The translations under genes were made by a program, and so were the position numbers. This document shows, piece after piece, positions 16,883-60,007 of a stretch of DNA of 64,000 nucleotides (within the stretch, counting starts at the first letter, position 1; every line of letters begins with the position of its first letter). Below the pieces are notes generated by a model. That model was not told the DNA's origin and made no database searches. It saw nothing but the letters and a program-made list of their open reading frames with translations. Origin of the DNA: Escherichia phage UPWr_E1; the sequence record PP418985.1; one strand, 5' to 3'.

Positions 16883-16935
16883 TATATATCATTAACATAA
16901 TTTTAGTTTACATATGCACATTATTAATACAGTTT

Positions 16936-17007
16936 GATTAAATTATGATCAAAACGAAGAAAGATCTTTAGAACATAGAAAATGTATCTTTGATTAATTA
17001 TTAATCA
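16936..17007. repeat. Intergenic 72-bp repeat, copy A
   Basis: gattaaattatgatcaaaacgaagaaagatctttagaa...attaatca; first 25 nt identical to copy B; contains palindrome aaagatcttt. Confidence 0.7.
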
Positions 17008-17084
17008 CCACATATTGTAACGCAAATGTTATACTCCGTAGGAGTTCGCGAAGCGATATCCTTTTGTGTAGTTTTTACATATAT

Positions 17085-17156
17085 GATTAAATTATGATCA
17101 AAACGAAGACTTATCTTATAGAATAATAAAAATTTGTTTCGAACATTTATTAATCA
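17085..17156. repeat. Intergenic 72-bp repeat, copy B
   Basis: gattaaattatgatcaaaacgaagacttatcttatagaataataaaaatttgtttcg...attaatca; 149 bp downstream of copy A. Confidence 0.7.
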
Positions 17157-26319: not shown

Positions 26320-27885
26320 TTAAAAATCCTCTATTTCATCGGGAGTTTGTTTAAAGCGCGGATCGTTCGCTTCTTCTTCGATCTGTTTCTTCTCGGTGTC
26401 CATCTGGTCATCGGTATATTTCAGAATGTCACGCATCACTGTCTGGTTAGAGAAATACTTACCAATGTAAGGGGCGATACGTTCGATTAGACCGATTCGA
26501 CGTTCTAAAATTTCCGCGTCTTTAACTTCTGTATAATAAGAGTCCCGATGGAAAACCACCTTGATATTATTTATTTCACGATCCCAATCGTCTTCCGTAA
26601 TTACATTTTTGAGAATCAGATTATATTTAAGCGGATCGCGCAATACTTCCGAAAACTGTGATTGCAGAGTTCTAATGAATTTCGAAAATTCCAACTCATC
26701 GCGAGTAATTTCTGAACCGTCACCGCCAATAACCATATTAGCATCGGAGAGATTGCTACGTGACAATGGCACACGCAACGCTTCATACAATTTACGGTTA
26801 AAGTAGCGAATATCATCGATATCACTCATACCAGATGCACCAGGTAAAGTAGTAACATCGGTGATTGCTTTACCATCTCGACGCTGTAACCAGTAGTCCT
26901 CTGTCATTGATAGGTTTGCTTGCTGGTTTTTAAGTTTACCAGTCGATGCATCATAAACAACGCGGTTTTTAAAAGACTGTGCCACTGAGTTCATGTGCTG
27001 TGCAGCCTTGCGGTTGTTCATGTTTCCGGTATCAATAAAGAATACTCGACGTTCCGGTGCACGCGTGATACGATAAACGACCATTGCGTCTTCAAGCAAT
27101 TTAAGCTGGTTTGCTGGCTTAACCGCCCGATGCAAATAACCAATGATATATTTATCATCGCAATCCATCAAGCCGCTGTGAGCGTATGTAATAGCACTAC
27201 GCGGGATTTTAACGCGACTATTGGGAGAGAATACTTGACCACCCGCGCAATAAGAACTATTGCCTACGGTGTAAATGAAATATTCTTTCGTTGCTTTATA
27301 AATTTTACCTTCCGGTGTGTCTTCTGTAATGATCTCGCGAACATATTCAAGATTTCGTGGATCAAGCTGGCGTAATTCTACGATACCATCTTTTGGATTT
27401 TTACCGATGATTTTATGGAAGAAAATACGCGAATCGACATACCAGCGACGGAACATATCCTGACCGCGCTTATCAAACTGGATAGTGTTTAAAAGATCTT
27501 TAAATTCTTCATGAATGCGCTCTTTCACAGATTCACTAAAACCAGTCGCCTCAAGATTTAATGAAACAACGTCATGACCTTCTTCAAATACAATCGCATC
27601 GTTAACGATATTCTGTACAGCGTTTTCGACTTCATGGTTATTCATCAAACCGCGATATGTGTTAACCAATTGCTTAGTTGTACTGATTTTCTGGTCGGTG
27701 CTGTAAAATTGCTGGGTAAGAGAGTTCCACGCGCTAGCCGGAGAGTTATCATTAATTTCTACTTCCGTAGCACCATCATTGTTTTTAGGTGCGGCGATAG
27801 ACTCTGCTTTATCTTTAATTTGTTCTTCGTATTTGTCGTTGTCAAAATCAGCCCAACGCGCAAGCATTTTTAATCTACTAAACAT
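26320..27885 (-). CDS. 20: Portal vertex protein gp20
   Basis: 521 aa (T4 gp20 524 aa); between gene 19 and the core genes. Confidence 0.85.
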   Translation of the reverse strand: MFSRLKMLARWADFDNDKYEEQIKDKAESIAAPKNNDGATEVEINDNSPASAWNSLTQQFYSTDQKISTTKQLVNTYRGLMNNHEVENAVQNIVNDAIVFEEGHDVVSLNLEATGFSESVKERIHEEFKDLLNTIQFDKRGQDMFRRWYVDSRIFFHKIIGKNPKDGIVELRQLDPRNLEYVREIITEDTPEGKIYKATKEYFIYTVGNSSYCAGGQVFSPNSRVKIPRSAITYAHSGLMDCDDKYIIGYLHRAVKPANQLKLLEDAMVVYRITRAPERRVFFIDTGNMNNRKAAQHMNSVAQSFKNRVVYDASTGKLKNQQANLSMTEDYWLQRRDGKAITDVTTLPGASGMSDIDDIRYFNRKLYEALRVPLSRSNLSDANMVIGGDGSEITRDELEFSKFIRTLQSQFSEVLRDPLKYNLILKNVITEDDWDREINNIKVVFHRDSYYTEVKDAEILERRIGLIERIAPYIGKYFSNQTVMRDILKYTDDQMDTEKKQIEEEANDPRFKQTPDEIEDF

Positions 27886-27943
27886 TATTCACCTCGAATT
27901 GGGAGAAATTAAGCGGGGAACTTCTCCCCGCATGATAATATAT

Positions 27944-28438
27944 TTATTCTACCCAATCGATAGCAAAAGTAACTTCAAACGTTTCAACTTCGTTGTTTTG
28001 TTCCCAATCGAGGGTTACTTCACCAACGTTGGTCGGGAAAATACCGTACAATGTTTTTTCGCTAGTTGATTCGGTGTTACGGTTAAGTTGACGAACAATA
28101 GCTTGTTTCTTATATTGTGCAGGAGTTGCACCAGTGATCGCCGATCCAGTACCATGTGTTTGATCGCTCCACGCAACGATAGCATCACGGATCTTGTGTG
28201 CGTCATCGTTGAATACAGTGATGGTCCAGTCGTCATATACACGGTCGCCAGCGATGTTAATTTTACGGTTTTGATAACCTACAGAGATTTTTTCTACGGT
28301 TGCAGCCGGGACAGTTGCCGCTTTACACATCAGCTTAAAGTTTTGCCCCAGATAAGGGATCTCAACTTCAAACAGGTTAGGACGAGCAAAATCGCCAGAC
28401 TCGAAACCGCGTGTAATATCATTCAAATCGAGTGCCAT
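27944..28438 (-). CDS. 19: Tail tube protein gp19
   Basis: 164 aa (T4 gp19 163 aa); downstream of gene 18. Confidence 0.85.
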   Translation of the reverse strand: MALDLNDITRGFESGDFARPNLFEVEIPYLGQNFKLMCKAATVPAATVEKISVGYQNRKINIAGDRVYDDWTITVFNDDAHKIRDAIVAWSDQTHGTGSAITGATPAQYKKQAIVRQLNRNTESTSEKTLYGIFPTNVGEVTLDWEQNNEVETFEVTFAIDWVE

Positions 28439-28680
28439 AATTGATATTCCTTAATAGAGCGGGGATTTTATCCCCGCTTGATTTAACTTTTAATCTATGC
28501 TAATTTACTGATTATGCCTGGTTAGCTGGACCGATAATTTCGTCAAAATCAGCACCAGTTGCAACAGCAGTGAAATTGAGCATGATATAGTTGATCGATT
28601 TTGCTGGTTTGATGAACATACTAGCAACAAATTCGTTACGATCAATTACATCCGGCGTGTTGTTCGTGGTGTCGCATTGT
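28408..28680. repeat. Tandem duplication copy 1 (273 bp): true gene 19 start, intergenic hairpin, pseudo 3' end of gene 18
   Basis: Identical to 28681..28953 at every position compared by eye. Confidence 0.85.
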
Positions 28681-28953
28681 CGCGTGTAATATCATTCAAA
28701 TCGAGTGCCATAATTGATATTCCTTAATAGAGCGGGGATTTTATCCCCGCTTGATTTAACTTTTAATCTATGCTAATTTACTGATTATGCCTGGTTAGCT
28801 GGACCGATAATTTCGTCAAAATCAGCACCAGTTGCAACAGCAGTGAAATTGAGCATGATATAGTTGATCGATTTTGCTGGTTTGATGAACATACTAGCAA
28901 CAAATTCGTTACGATCAATTACATCCGGCGTGTTGTTCGTGGTGTCGCATTGT
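28681..28953. repeat. Tandem duplication copy 2 (273 bp): pseudo gene 19 start (first 10 codons), intergenic hairpin, true 3' end of gene 18
   Basis: Perfect direct repeat of 28408..28680; the copied gene 19 start reads MALDLNDITR then runs out of frame into the gene 18 fragment. Confidence 0.85.
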
Positions 28954-30791
28954 ACTCGGAAGTCATAAATGCCACCCAGAGAGCGAATCGTGCTGAGATA
29001 TTGCGAAACCTCCATACGGAAGGAAGCGCGAGTAAAGTTATCGTTGTTTTCAAACAGTTTGTATTTGCTTGAATCGCCGATATTCTTTTTCAGCATGTTA
29101 AACAGACGACGAACGTTAATGCGGTCAAACGGGCTAGGAACAGTAGTAGCGGTTTTATCACCCATCAGGATAAACCCTTCACCACCAGCACCAATTACCG
29201 GGTTAATTGCAGCCTGATACAGACGATCACGGTGTGCCTTGCGAGGCTCAATAGCCAGTTTAACTACGTTCATGATCTGACCACGGTTATAACCTGCCGG
29301 ACTCATCCACGGTTGAGATACCGCATCAGTGCGAGCACACAAACCAGCAATATCAGCAGCCAACGGAACCCAGCGGTTTACATCGTTGTATTTGTCATAC
29401 TGATATTTGTAGTTACCATCAATAACCGCGTAAGTGGTATTAATGTTCATGTTGTTGTCTGAATAATTGCTCTTTCCTTCTCGCCATGCGATCAGGTTAT
29501 CAATTGCGGTAGTGACCGGAATATTAACAACAGTGCTACGCGGCGGAGAAACCATCACTAAGCAATCCTGACGCTCATCACCGATGGAAACAGCATGTTT
29601 CTGTACGGTGGAGAATGCATCACCTTCACCCGCACACGCACCAGCAATCAGCAGGTTTACATGAATAGACTCACGTTCAGCAAACAGATCCCAGCCTTTC
29701 ATCATTGCGCCAATAAACGGATCAGCACCAACACCAACACCCGCAGTTGCGGATTCGTTAGCAGAAACACCACCAACCAAAGAGATGATACCACTGAAAC
29801 CATCTACCCAGCCCTGAGCGGTTGCATAGATGTACTGACTAGCACCACGAGCAAAGAAGTCGTCCATATAGATAGAATTGCCGTAAACGTCTTTATCCCC
29901 TTTCAGAGTAGACAGTACATAGGATTCTACCACAACACCATCTCGACGAACAATAAACGCATATTGATTATCATTCTGCGGTGCATATGGAATCAGGTTG
30001 CGTGCTGCGGCACGAGTTCCACCGAACGGATACAGTGTCAATTCAGGTGCTGCCGCTCCGCTAAACGCGCTACGTGCCAGAATCTCAACTTCCAGAGAGT
30101 TACCAATCTCACCAGCATAGATTGCACTTACCGCTGGCATATCATACTTTTTGAGCTTAGTCAAAAATTCTTGATTGGTGATATTGGCGCGGGAAGTCTC
30201 CAGATCCGTTAAGAGAAGACCGGAATCGGTAACAATTTTAGAAATGGTGATCGCCGCATTTGAGTTACCAGTGCCGGAAGTGATTTCTACGGTAAACCCA
30301 TCCAGATTAGGATACACGCCAACGGATTTAGCCAGAGCAATGATTTTCCCGGTTGGGATGAAAATACCTTTAATTTTACCTTCTGTATCTACTTTGGTTA
30401 CTTTACCAGCGGTTTCAACTTCCTGACGATTGTATTTTACTTTAATTGAATCGCCTACTTTGTAGTTAGAACCTTCGTTGGTAATATTAAATTCTACGTT
30501 ACCCGCGAGAGTGGTGGAGTTTTTCGCTTTTTCTGTATTCAGTACACGAACAACACGCAGGTCGTTACCATACTGGAGGAAGTTAGCCCCGCTCATGAAA
30601 TAGTCTGCGGTGTTATTATCCGGCTGACCAAATTTATTAACTAATTCAACTTCATTAGTTACTTGAATAATCTGGAAAGCTGGACCCCATTGAAATTTAC
30701 CTACCAGCGCCGCGCGACCAGTCGCAGATTGTACAATGGTAGTGGAGAGAGTAGTTTCTTTCGTTTCGAAACCCGGTGATAATAGAGTCAT
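28785..30791 (-). CDS. 18: Tail sheath protein gp18
   Basis: 668 aa (T4 gp18 659 aa); synteny 17-18-19. Confidence 0.9.
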   Translation of the reverse strand: MTLLSPGFETKETTLSTTIVQSATGRAALVGKFQWGPAFQIIQVTNEVELVNKFGQPDNNTADYFMSGANFLQYGNDLRVVRVLNTEKAKNSTTLAGNVEFNITNEGSNYKVGDSIKVKYNRQEVETAGKVTKVDTEGKIKGIFIPTGKIIALAKSVGVYPNLDGFTVEITSGTGNSNAAITISKIVTDSGLLLTDLETSRANITNQEFLTKLKKYDMPAVSAIYAGEIGNSLEVEILARSAFSGAAAPELTLYPFGGTRAAARNLIPYAPQNDNQYAFIVRRDGVVVESYVLSTLKGDKDVYGNSIYMDDFFARGASQYIYATAQGWVDGFSGIISLVGGVSANESATAGVGVGADPFIGAMMKGWDLFAERESIHVNLLIAGACAGEGDAFSTVQKHAVSIGDERQDCLVMVSPPRSTVVNIPVTTAIDNLIAWREGKSNYSDNNMNINTTYAVIDGNYKYQYDKYNDVNRWVPLAADIAGLCARTDAVSQPWMSPAGYNRGQIMNVVKLAIEPRKAHRDRLYQAAINPVIGAGGEGFILMGDKTATTVPSPFDRINVRRLFNMLKKNIGDSSKYKLFENNDNFTRASFRMEVSQYLSTIRSLGGIYDFRVQCDTTNNTPDVIDRNEFVASMFIKPAKSINYIMLNFTAVATGADFDEIIGPANQA

Positions 30792-30822
30792 TAGAATTTC
30801 CTCATCTTTTTATGCATTATCG

Positions 30823-33149
<2,327 letters not shown>

Positions 33150-54715: not shown

Positions 54716-54784
54716 AAGAAGTCCTCGTATAGTACCCGTTTTATTTATTACTGTATAAAAATATAGTTATTGGTTAAAACATAA

Positions 54785-54827
54785 CCAAAACGAAGAAAGA
54801 TCTTTAGAATAATAAAAATTTGTTTCG
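54785..54827. repeat. Third copy of the intergenic repeat (core 43 bp)
   Basis: ccaaaacgaagaaagatctttagaataataaaaatttgtttcg, near-identical to the core of copies A and B at 16936..17156. Confidence 0.7.
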
Positions 54828-54904
54828 GTTAAAAAGTAGTCAGTGCCTACGGCACGTCGCAAAGCGACAATTGTTAATAAATATTTTCATTTGAGGAATC
54901 AGTA

Positions 54905-56956: not shown

Positions 56957-56961
56957 ATGTG

Positions 56962-56990
56962 TTGACAACCATAAACGACTATAGCATAAT
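56962..56990 (+). promoter_or_regulatory. Early sigma70-like promoter P1 with conserved leader
   Basis: TTGACA, 17 nt, CATAAT, then leader catcgaaacgaaacacac...GGAGAATCAAAATG. Confidence 0.65.
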
Positions 56991-57027
56991 GCACATATCG
57001 AAACGAAACACACTTAGGAGAATCAAA

Positions 57028-57405
57028 ATGATGATGATGTTTAAAGATAAATTCGAATGTCACTACACCCGTAACTTTGACTTAGTATCCCGCTACTACA
57101 TTCATAAAGAAACTGGAACGCAAGTAGTTCTTGAATCTCACAGCGAAGTAGGATTCGATTCAACAAAAGTAGCAATTAGTGCTCGCTTCTGGGATAACGG
57201 CAAATTTGCTTATATCGCTTGGAACGACGACGAAAATGTAATTACAGTAGCTTTCGGTGATGACTACTACACTAAAAAGACTTTCGATAGTAAGCCATCA
57301 AATGAATACCTGAAAGCGTATGTGCAGCACATGTTCCAACGTGTTCTGACCGGAATGGAAATCAATGTCATGAAAGACATTGTAGACGAAGTAAAATATT
57401 CTTAA
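57028..57405 (+). CDS. Hypothetical early protein (125 aa)
   Basis: ATG run (MMMMFKDKF) preceded by AGGAG; the track ORF starts earlier at 56959 inside the promoter. Confidence 0.55.
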   Translation: MMMMFKDKFECHYTRNFDLVSRYYIHKETGTQVVLESHSEVGFDSTKVAISARFWDNGKFAYIAWNDDENVITVAFGDDYYTKKTFDSKPSNEYLKAYVQHMFQRVLTGMEINVMKDIVDEVKYS

Positions 57406-58928: not shown

Positions 58929-58954
58929 TTGCCTAAAATTTTTTAAAAAAGTTG

Positions 58955-58983
58955 TTGACTCCAGGTCCAGCCTATAGCATAAT
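58955..58983 (+). promoter_or_regulatory. Early sigma70-like promoter P3 with conserved leader
   Basis: TTGACT, 17 nt, CATAAT; leader catcgaaacgaaacacac...GGAGAATCAAAttATG. Confidence 0.6.
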
Positions 58984-59029
58984 ACACACATCGAAACGAA
59001 ACACACTTTCTTAAACGGAGAATCAAATT

Positions 59030-59933: not shown

Positions 59934-59940
59934 AAAGTTG

Positions 59941-59969
59941 TTGACACGCGAGAGGGTGTATAGCATAAT
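59941..59969 (+). promoter_or_regulatory. Early sigma70-like promoter P5 with conserved leader
   Basis: TTGACA, 17 nt, CATAAT; leader catcgaaacgaaacacac..AGGAGtATCAAAAATG. Confidence 0.6.
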
Positions 59970-60007
59970 ACACCCATCGAAACGAAACACACTAAGGAGT
60001 ATCAAAA

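What the first reader, a model, noticed from the sequence alone, without database searches (positions are those of the whole stretch)
28408..28953. Perfect 273-bp tandem duplication spanning the gene 18/gene 19 junction
28408..28680 and 28681..28953 are identical. Each copy holds the last ~169 nt of gene 18, the intergenic hairpin and the first 31 nt of gene 19. The result is a pseudo gene 19 initiation region (RBS plus ATG at 28711, first 10 codons MALDLNDITR, then out of frame into a gene 18 fragment, about 21 codons) upstream of the real gene 19, and two copies of the hairpin. Perfect identity means a very recent duplication or an assembly/circularisation artefact. If real, it doubles the attenuator between sheath and tube genes and adds a decoy ribosome-loading site.
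Basis: seen in the sequence. Interest (0 to 1): 0.6.

Follow-up and report, generated by a model that had tools for sequence, protein, structure and literature searches.

The report
Untrimmed assembly overlap, not biology
The perfect 273-bp tandem repeat at the sheath/tube gene junction of this T4-like phage (Escherichia phage UPWr_E1) is really in the sequence, but it is almost certainly a leftover overlap from assembling a circularly permuted genome and not a feature of the phage, so it is ordinary.

Summary
Window 28408-28680 and 28681-28953 are identical (273 bp x 2.0), and this is the only tandem repeat in the 64 kb. The anatomy is as described: 31 nt of gene 19, a 73-nt spacer with a hairpin, 169 nt of the gene 18 3' end, and a 21-codon decoy ORF.

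The source is Escherichia phage UPWr_E1 (Krischvirus). Every relative examined has one copy: 40 listed GenBank records and 15 fetched loci. Deleting one copy restores gapless colinearity. The novel junction occurs nowhere in three public collections. The breakpoints share no microhomology, and the event is unrelated to T4 Hp17 amplifications or PeSL cassettes.

All five other phage genomes deposited earlier by the same laboratory end with an exact copy of their own start (141, 141, 251, 253, 308 bp), at different genome positions. Their pipeline therefore leaves contig-end overlaps untrimmed, and 273 bp falls in that range.

The GenBank record even annotates the duplicated gene 18 tail as a 35-aa 'tail sheath protein'.

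Best explanation: an assembly or circularisation artefact (about 0.88). A genuine, private, very recent duplication is not excluded (about 0.09). Reads or PCR would settle it. Interest is low.

The parts
28408..28680 (.). Copy 1 of the 273-bp unit. On the - strand it reads: gene 18 3' fragment (169 nt), 73-nt spacer with hairpin, then the first 31 nt of the real gene 19.
   Evidence: Identical to copy 2.
28681..28953 (.). Copy 2 of the 273-bp unit. It holds the true 3' end of the full-length gene 18, the spacer with hairpin, and a pseudo gene 19 start.
   Evidence: ORFs.
28669..28692 (.). The novel D|D junction (28680|28681), GTGTCGCATTGT|CGCGTGTAATAT. This is the only sequence that does not exist in a single-copy genome.
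   Evidence: Absent from viral contigs, metagenome contigs and genome contigs. Alignments to 15 relatives break exactly here.
27944..28438 (-). Gene 19, tail tube protein (164 aa), intact.
   Evidence: ORF; WWT36741.1 'tail tube protein [Escherichia phage UPWr_E1]'; Pfam Phage_T4_gp19 on the identical product.
28785..30791 (-). Gene 18, tail sheath protein (668 aa), intact.
   Evidence: ORF; WWT36654.1 'tail sheath [Escherichia phage UPWr_E1]'.
28646..28711 (-). 21-codon decoy ORF: gene 19 RBS and first 10 codons, then out of frame into the gene 18 fragment.
   Evidence: Not annotated in the GenBank record.
28512..28619 (-). 35-aa ORF equal to the C-terminal 35 residues of gp18, made by the extra copy. 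Annotated in GenBank as a separate 'tail sheath protein'.
   Evidence: Exact look-up returns WWT36920.1 [Escherichia phage UPWr_E1].
28457..28479 (-). Intergenic GC-rich hairpin, copy 1 (9-10 bp stem, 3-nt loop).
   Evidence: The homologous site is annotated 'putative transcriptional terminator' in phage G2248.
28730..28752 (-). Intergenic GC-rich hairpin, copy 2.
30823..30830 (-). T4-type late promoter box TATAAATA upstream of gene 18. There is none between genes 18 and 19.

Best explanation
The second 273-bp copy is an assembly artefact. T4-type phage DNA is circularly permuted, so short reads assemble into a circle that the assembler breaks at an arbitrary point. This leaves the same stretch at both ends of the contig, and the overlap was never trimmed.

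The two copies now sit head to tail for one of three reasons: the contig was rotated before deposition, two overlapping contig ends were butt-joined during scaffolding or gap-filling, or the 64-kb window was cut across the joined end and start of the record.

The phage itself most likely has one gene 18-hairpin-gene 19 junction, like all its relatives. Its genome would then be 167,670 bp, not 167,943 bp. The 35-aa 'tail sheath protein' CDS (WWT36920.1) and the decoy gene 19 start would be by-products.

Shown: the repeat, its exact limits, its absence from relatives, the blunt junction, and the laboratory's habit of leaving such overlaps. Inferred: that the same thing happened in this record.
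For: (1) The copies are 100% identical and the array is exactly 2.0 units, with zero bases of shared sequence at the breakpoints. The in-register run is 0/0, and the longest common word within +/-60 nt is 7 nt, reached or exceeded by 48% of shuffles. An arbitrary contig break predicts exactly this.

(2) It is private to this record. All 40 listed Krischvirus records span 1,328 bp for the 1,601-bp query, which is 273 bp less. Each of 15 fetched loci, 12 of them independent metagenome or SRA assemblies, has exactly one copy of the unit. With one copy deleted, the window aligns in a single HSP to all 15. With both copies, the alignment breaks exactly at 28680|28681 and the two pieces share 273 bp of subject.

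(3) The junction 24- and 30-mers have no match in IMG/VR, JGI metagenome contigs or GTDB genomes.

(4) The source is Escherichia phage UPWr_E1. All five earlier phage genomes from the same laboratory (MT588083, MT632017-20) have an exact prefix = suffix of 251, 141, 253, 141 and 308 bp. These sit at different genome positions even among near-identical phages, so they are assembly overlaps and not real termini. 273 bp lies within this range.

(5) That laboratory's published pipeline was MiSeq 2x250, Shovill, and an assembly-improvement pipeline, with no trimming or circularisation step mentioned in the passages retrieved (PMC8425127).

(6) It is established that assemblers leave a repeat at both ends of contigs from circular or concatemer-replicated genomes (CheckV, PMC8116208; PhageTerm, PMC5557969, which also finds no fixed termini for T4).

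(7) The record's annotation treats the duplicated gene 18 tail as a separate 35-aa CDS, so the repeat was not curated out or remarked on.
Against: No reads are available, so nothing here shows directly that the phage DNA has one copy. The methods of the UPWr_E1 paper (Sliwka et al. 2025, Vet Microbiol 301:110363) are not in the library, so the assembly pipeline for this particular genome is inferred from the laboratory's 2021 paper.

In the five sister records the overlap sits at the record termini, whereas in the window the copies are adjacent. An extra step is therefore needed (rotation, scaffold join, or a window that wraps the record ends), and I could not establish which. Protein accession numbers are ordered by length, not position.

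A tandem duplication leaves both genes intact, so a real duplication would be viable.
Confidence: 0.88

Rival explanations
1. A genuine, very recent tandem duplication in the UPWr_E1 stock, formed by illegitimate (homology-independent) joining or replication slippage and fixed by a plaque-purification bottleneck. The late transcript from the gene 18 promoter would then cross two hairpins, a decoy gene 19 ribosome-binding site with a 21-codon ORF, and an untranslated gene 18 tail before reaching gene 19. This would probably lower tube-protein output slightly.
For: The sequence as deposited contains it. Both genes stay intact. Gene 19 has no late promoter of its own, so a second hairpin could in principle affect it. 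Tandem duplications do occur in T4-type phages, for example the Hp17 amplifications of the gene 16-19 region (PMC10893049).
Against: Known T4 duplications form at short homologies (title of Wu, Wu & Black 1991, cited), and there is none here. None of the relatives examined and no public contig carries it. No selective benefit is apparent: sheath and tube are needed in equal numbers (established T4 knowledge). From my own knowledge of T4 recombination rates, a 273-bp perfect repeat should be lost at roughly a percent per growth cycle. The same laboratory's five other records show the artefact that would produce exactly this pattern.
Confidence: 0.09
2. A true physical direct terminal repeat of the virion DNA (fixed ends, as in T7- or T5-type packaging), captured by the assembler.
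For: Formally, a repeat at both ends of a contig can reflect real terminal repeats.
Against: Krischvirus is a T4-type headful packager. PhageTerm finds no termini for T4. The repeat would start inside codon 11 of gene 19 and end inside gene 18. Whole-genome contigs of close relatives run straight through this site.
Confidence: 0.01
3. An Hp17-type or PeSL-mediated rearrangement, the two known recombination routes that reshape this kind of genome.
For: The location is next to the region amplified in T4 Hp17 mutants. PeSL cassettes exist in this genome.
Against: The unit does not contain gene 17 or reach gene 16. There is no gene 16/gene 19 homology beyond chance 7-8-mers. No PeSL-type promoter and stem-loop motif lies at either breakpoint; the motif occurs only at 56.9-60 kb.
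Confidence: 0.01

Closest known systems
Untrimmed contig-end overlap ('assembly DTR') of circular or circularly permuted phage genomes
   Same: Two exactly identical copies, arbitrary blunt limits that ignore gene boundaries, and length near one read length. The overlap is absent from relatives and removing it restores the ancestral order. The same laboratory's five other records show it, at 141-308 bp. The general phenomenon is described in CheckV and PhageTerm.
   Different: Here the copies are adjacent in the window and not at the two ends of a record, so a rotation, a scaffold join or a wrapped window has to be assumed.
T4 Hp17 tandem amplifications of the gene 16-19 region (Wu, Wu & Black 1991, as summarised in PMC10893049)
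   Same: A tandem repeat in a T4-type genome with one end point in gene 19.
   Different: Hp17 units span genes 17-18, arise between a short homology in the gene 16 pac site and gene 19, and are selected for more TerL. This unit is 273 bp, contains no complete gene, and has no homology at its ends.
PeSL (promoter-early stem-loop) cassette-mediated shuffling in RB49/phi1-type phages (PMC2839356)
   Same: Same phage genus, and a stem-loop lies inside the unit.
   Different: The hairpin lies in a late operon, carries no early promoter, and is in the middle of the unit, not at its ends. PeSL-like motifs are found elsewhere in the window.

Membership tests
Assembly end-overlap artefact | Copies are exactly identical | tested here: met
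   273/273 identical.
Assembly end-overlap artefact | Exactly two units with arbitrary, blunt limits (no microhomology, no filler) | tested here: met
   2.0 copies; in-register homology 0/0; longest common word at chance level.
Assembly end-overlap artefact | Absent from relatives; removing one copy restores colinearity | tested here: met
   40 listed records and 15 loci are single copy. The collapsed window aligns in one HSP to all 15 loci, and without any gap to RB49 and JSE across the breakpoints.
Assembly end-overlap artefact | Genome type assembles as a circle (circularly permuted, headful packaging) | not testable with these tools
   Inferred from taxonomy (Krischvirus, Straboviridae) and from T4 behaviour in PhageTerm. 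The ends of UPWr_E1 DNA were not examined.
Assembly end-overlap artefact | The producing pipeline is known to leave overlaps | tested here: met
   5 of 5 sister records have prefix = suffix of 141-308 bp at differing positions. Pipeline described in PMC8425127. The pipeline for UPWr_E1 itself is not documented in the library.
Assembly end-overlap artefact | No reads span the copy|copy junction; depth over the unit equals the flanks | not testable with these tools
   No raw reads available. The exact gp18 is in NCBI only, with no Logan or SRA assembly.
Genuine T4-type tandem duplication (Hp17 / short-homology type) | Short homology at the two end points | tested here: not met
Genuine T4-type tandem duplication (Hp17 / short-homology type) | Unit spans gene 17, with ends in the gene 16 pac site and gene 19 | tested here: not met
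   The unit is 28408-28680. Gene 17 is 30826-32652 and gene 16 is 32649-33149. No gene 16/gene 19 homology.
Genuine T4-type tandem duplication (Hp17 / short-homology type) | Junction present in phage DNA | not testable with these tools
   Needs reads or PCR.
PeSL-mediated shuffling | PeSL motif (early promoter plus stem-loop) at the boundaries of the rearranged module | tested here: not met
   The early-promoter motif is found only at 56959, 58952 and 59938. The sigma-70 scan of 27800-31000 is below shuffle expectation.
True direct terminal repeat of virion DNA | Conserved terminus position in related phages | tested here: not met
   Relatives' whole-genome contigs run through the site with a single copy.

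The most novel reading that the evidence does not exclude
The duplication is real in the UPWr_E1 stock: a homology-independent 273-bp tandem duplication that places a second hairpin and a decoy gene 19 translation start between the sheath and tube genes. This would give a natural experiment on how the gp18:gp19 expression ratio is set in a T4-type late operon.
Probability: 0.09. Interest if true: 0.3.

Novelty: not a real feature. Interest (0 to 1): 0.07.

Why it matters
As biology it matters little. As data hygiene it matters somewhat. If the artefact reading is right, the deposited UPWr_E1 genome is 273 bp too long and carries a spurious 35-aa 'tail sheath protein' CDS. Five other records from the same laboratory carry 141-308 bp of duplicated ends. 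Such leftovers inflate genome lengths, create fragment genes, and can be mistaken for recent duplications, terminal repeats or regulatory novelties by automated scans. If the duplication were real, it would be a small, probably unstable, private variant. It would be of modest interest for late-operon expression and for homology-independent duplication in a phage with very active recombination.

Tried and rejected
(1) Locating the record's start from GenBank protein accession numbers. The numbers turned out to be ordered by descending protein length (1028 aa = WWT36646 ... 35 aa = WWT36920), not by position, so I cannot say whether the junction is internal to the record or is the record's end joined to its start.

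(2) Finding the source record or its reads. It is not in the 'phages' collection (best hit 97.8% over 1.6 kb and 93.3% over 20 kb). The exact gp18 is not in the assembly index. The primary paper is not held, and other citing papers give no accession or methods.

(3) Dating the event from the lack of differences between the copies. This is weak, because four relatives are 100% identical to the unit over its 273 bp.

(4) Hp17-type origin: rejected.

(5) PeSL-mediated origin: rejected.

(6) Known RNA family in the spacer: none. The only hit is a sub-threshold chance match elsewhere.

(7) Annotated ORFs crossing the junction, which would have proved it internal to the record: none are on record.

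(8) I could not find the sister E. coli phages UPWr_E2, E3 and E4, which share a project with UPWr_E1 and would be the best comparators, because no accession numbers were available.

Full report
**1. The observation.** The repeat is real in the sequence and is exactly as described. Window 28408-28680 equals 28681-28953 base for base. TRF gives period 273, 2.0 copies, 100% matches, no indels. It is the only tandem array in the 64-kb window and the only long perfect direct repeat.

All genes here are on the - strand: portal gene 20 (26320-27885), tube gene 19 (27944-28438, 164 aa), sheath gene 18 (28785-30791, 668 aa), and large terminase gene 17 (30826-32652). Each unit holds:
- the first 31 nt of gene 19;
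- a 73-nt spacer with a 9-10-bp GC-rich hairpin (28457-28479 and 28730-28752);
- the last 169 nt of gene 18.

Both full genes stay intact. The by-products are a 21-codon decoy ORF that starts with the gene 19 RBS and first 10 codons (28646-28711), and a stranded gene 18 tail containing a 35-aa ORF (28512-28619).

**2. What the genome is.** The region matches Krischvirus (RB49/JSE-type, Straboviridae) phages at 97-98%, and 93% at best over 20 kb. Exact protein look-ups identify the source as Escherichia phage UPWr_E1, a 167,943-bp record. It is one of the APEC-targeting phages of the Wroclaw UPWr group, assigned to Krischvirus (PMC12427302). The record itself is not in the searchable phage collection.

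**3. Is the repeat shared?** No.
- All 40 listed relatives span 1,328 bp for the 1,601-bp query, exactly 273 bp less.
- I fetched 15 loci: RB49, JSE, G2248, and 12 independent metagenome or SRA contigs that encode an identical gp19 or portal protein. Each has exactly one copy of the unit.
- With one copy deleted, the window aligns to every locus in a single HSP, and without any gap to RB49 and JSE across the breakpoints.
- With both copies, the alignment breaks exactly at 28680|28681, and the two pieces share 273 bp of subject.
- The only truly new sequence, the copy|copy junction, has no exact match in IMG/VR, JGI metagenome contigs or the GTDB genome set.

Four relatives are 100% identical to the unit. 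The region is therefore conserved, and the absence of differences between the two copies dates the event only weakly.

**4. The breakpoints.** The array is exactly 2.0 units. The base before copy 1 differs from the last base of the unit, and the base after copy 2 differs from the first base of the unit. In-register identity at the breakpoints is 0/0, and the longest word shared within +/-60 nt is 7 nt, reached or exceeded by 48% of shuffles. The limits ignore all features: one falls inside codon 11 of gene 19 and the other inside gene 18.

Known real duplications in T4 arise at short homologies. One example is the Hp17 amplifications between the gene 16 pac site and a homologous sequence in gene 19, selected for more TerL (PMC10893049, citing Wu, Wu & Black 1991). 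This unit contains neither gene 17 nor gene 16. Gene 16 and gene 19 share only chance 7-8-mers. PeSL cassettes, the other known shuffling device of RB49-type phages (PMC2839356), are present in the window but only at 56.9-60 kb, not at the breakpoints.

**5. The decisive circumstantial evidence.** The same laboratory's earlier genome paper describes MiSeq 2x250 reads, Shovill, an 'assembly improvement pipeline' and Prokka. It states that each phage assembled into one contig, and the passages retrieved mention no circularisation or trimming step (PMC8425127).

I fetched all five records from that paper whole. Every one ends with an exact copy of its own start:

| Record | Phage | Prefix = suffix |
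|---|---|---|
| MT588083 | UPWr_S1 | 251 bp |
| MT632017 | UPWr_S2 | 141 bp |
| MT632018 | UPWr_S3 | 253 bp |
| MT632019 | UPWr_S4 | 141 bp |
| MT632020 | UPWr_S5 | 308 bp |

The break points lie at different places in the genome. The ends of S1 map to about 15.4 kb and those of S5 to about 26.2 kb in S2 coordinates, and S3 starts 170 bp before S2 although the paper describes the two as more than 99.9% identical. These are therefore untrimmed overlaps from circular assemblies, not physical termini.

CheckV and PhageTerm describe the same behaviour of assemblers on circular or concatemer-replicated genomes. PhageTerm also finds no fixed ends for T4. A 273-bp overlap fits squarely in the laboratory's 141-308 bp range, about one MiSeq read length.

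**6. State of the deposited record.** The 35-aa ORF in the stranded gene 18 tail is annotated in GenBank as 'tail sheath protein' WWT36920.1, next to the full 668-aa sheath WWT36654.1. So the extra copy is in the record and was not noticed.

I could not determine whether the two copies are adjacent inside the record (after rotation, or after a scaffold or gap-fill join of overlapping ends) or sit at its two termini, with the window cut across the joined ends. Protein accessions are ordered by length, not position, and no annotated ORF crosses the junction. Either way the artefact is of the same kind.

**7. If it were real.** A T4-type late promoter box (TATAAATA) lies at 30823-30830, just upstream of gene 18, and there is none between genes 18 and 19. 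Gene 19 is therefore probably read from the gene 18 transcript through the hairpin.

On the coding strand the hairpin is followed by CUCUAUUAAGG, not a U-run. The terminator scan flags it only on the opposite strand, although the homologous site is annotated as a putative terminator in G2248. Rfam has nothing here.

A real duplication would add a second hairpin, a decoy start with a 21-codon ORF, and about 170 nt of untranslated gene 18 tail ahead of gene 19. A mild drop in tube protein is the most one would expect, with no evident advantage. From my own knowledge of T4 recombination frequencies (about 1% per 100 bp in standard crosses), a 273-bp perfect repeat should also be shed at roughly a percent per cycle unless selected.

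**8. Verdict.** I put about 0.88 on an untrimmed assembly overlap, about 0.09 on a genuine private and very recent duplication, and about 0.01 each on a true terminal repeat and on an Hp17/PeSL-type event. Reads, a 378-bp versus 651-bp PCR product, or simply inspecting the record's termini would settle it. Interest is low, and the novelty class is 'not a real feature'.

Noticed in passing
L016-L020 (GenBank MT588083, MT632017, MT632018, MT632019, MT632020), both ends of each record: All five Salmonella Jerseyvirus records of the same laboratory carry exact prefix = suffix overlaps of 251, 141, 253, 141 and 308 bp, at different genome positions. The genome lengths are therefore overstated. The 'fragment' genes reported for UPWr_S1 and S5 in PMC8425127 are probably genes cut by the arbitrary contig break. 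UPWr_S2 and S4 ends also contain a 58-bp tandem repeat (2.4 copies).
   Followed up: yes
window 56959-57028, 58952-59021, 59938-60007 (+): Three copies of a roughly 69-nt cassette: TTGAC, a 16-nt spacer, TATAGCATAAT, then the conserved leader ATCGAAACGAAACACAC and a Shine-Dalgarno sequence. These look like the early-promoter (PeSL-type) regulatory cassettes described for RB49/phi1 phages (PMC2839356). There are 3 matches against 0.05 expected by chance.
   Followed up: partly
window 16935-17007, 17084-17156, 54771-54843 (+): A second family of 73-nt repeats (66-73% identity). In two of the three copies it is bounded by the inverted ends TGATTAA...TTAATCA; in the third (54771-54843) the ends are degenerate (TGGTTAA...GTAGTCAG). 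There are two copies 149 bp apart and one 37.7 kb away. It may be another intergenic regulatory or stem-loop cassette.
   Followed up: no
L007 and L010 (1-2345), L011 and L014 (1-2345), relatives of window gene 17 (30826-32652): In some close relatives the large terminase gene is altered. In L007 and L010 the product is 938 aa with a faint LAGLIDADG hit. In L011 and L014 it is split, with an extra ORF carrying Tn7 TnsA-like / endonuclease-I-like domains. These look like homing-endonuclease or intein-type insertions. The window's gene 17 is uninterrupted (608 aa).
   Followed up: no
window 27913-27931 (-): A second GC-rich hairpin, GCGGGGAGAAGTTCCCCGC, lies just after gene 19. It has the same stem core (GCGGGGA/TCCCCGC) as the gene 18/19 spacer hairpin and does have a T-rich tail on the coding strand. 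It is annotated as a putative terminator in phage G2248. Late structural genes here seem to be punctuated by one hairpin type.
   Followed up: partly
window 28785-30791 versus L001-L015: Identity to relatives changes sharply around the junction. The gene 16-18 side is 91-96% identical, while gene 19 onward is 96-98% and the 273-bp unit is up to 100% identical. This suggests mosaic exchange or a fast-evolving exposed sheath domain.
   Followed up: no
GenBank record of UPWr_E1 (protein accessions WWT36646-WWT36920): Protein accession numbers run in order of decreasing protein length and not genome position. This is unusual and defeats positional inference from accessions.
   Followed up: yes
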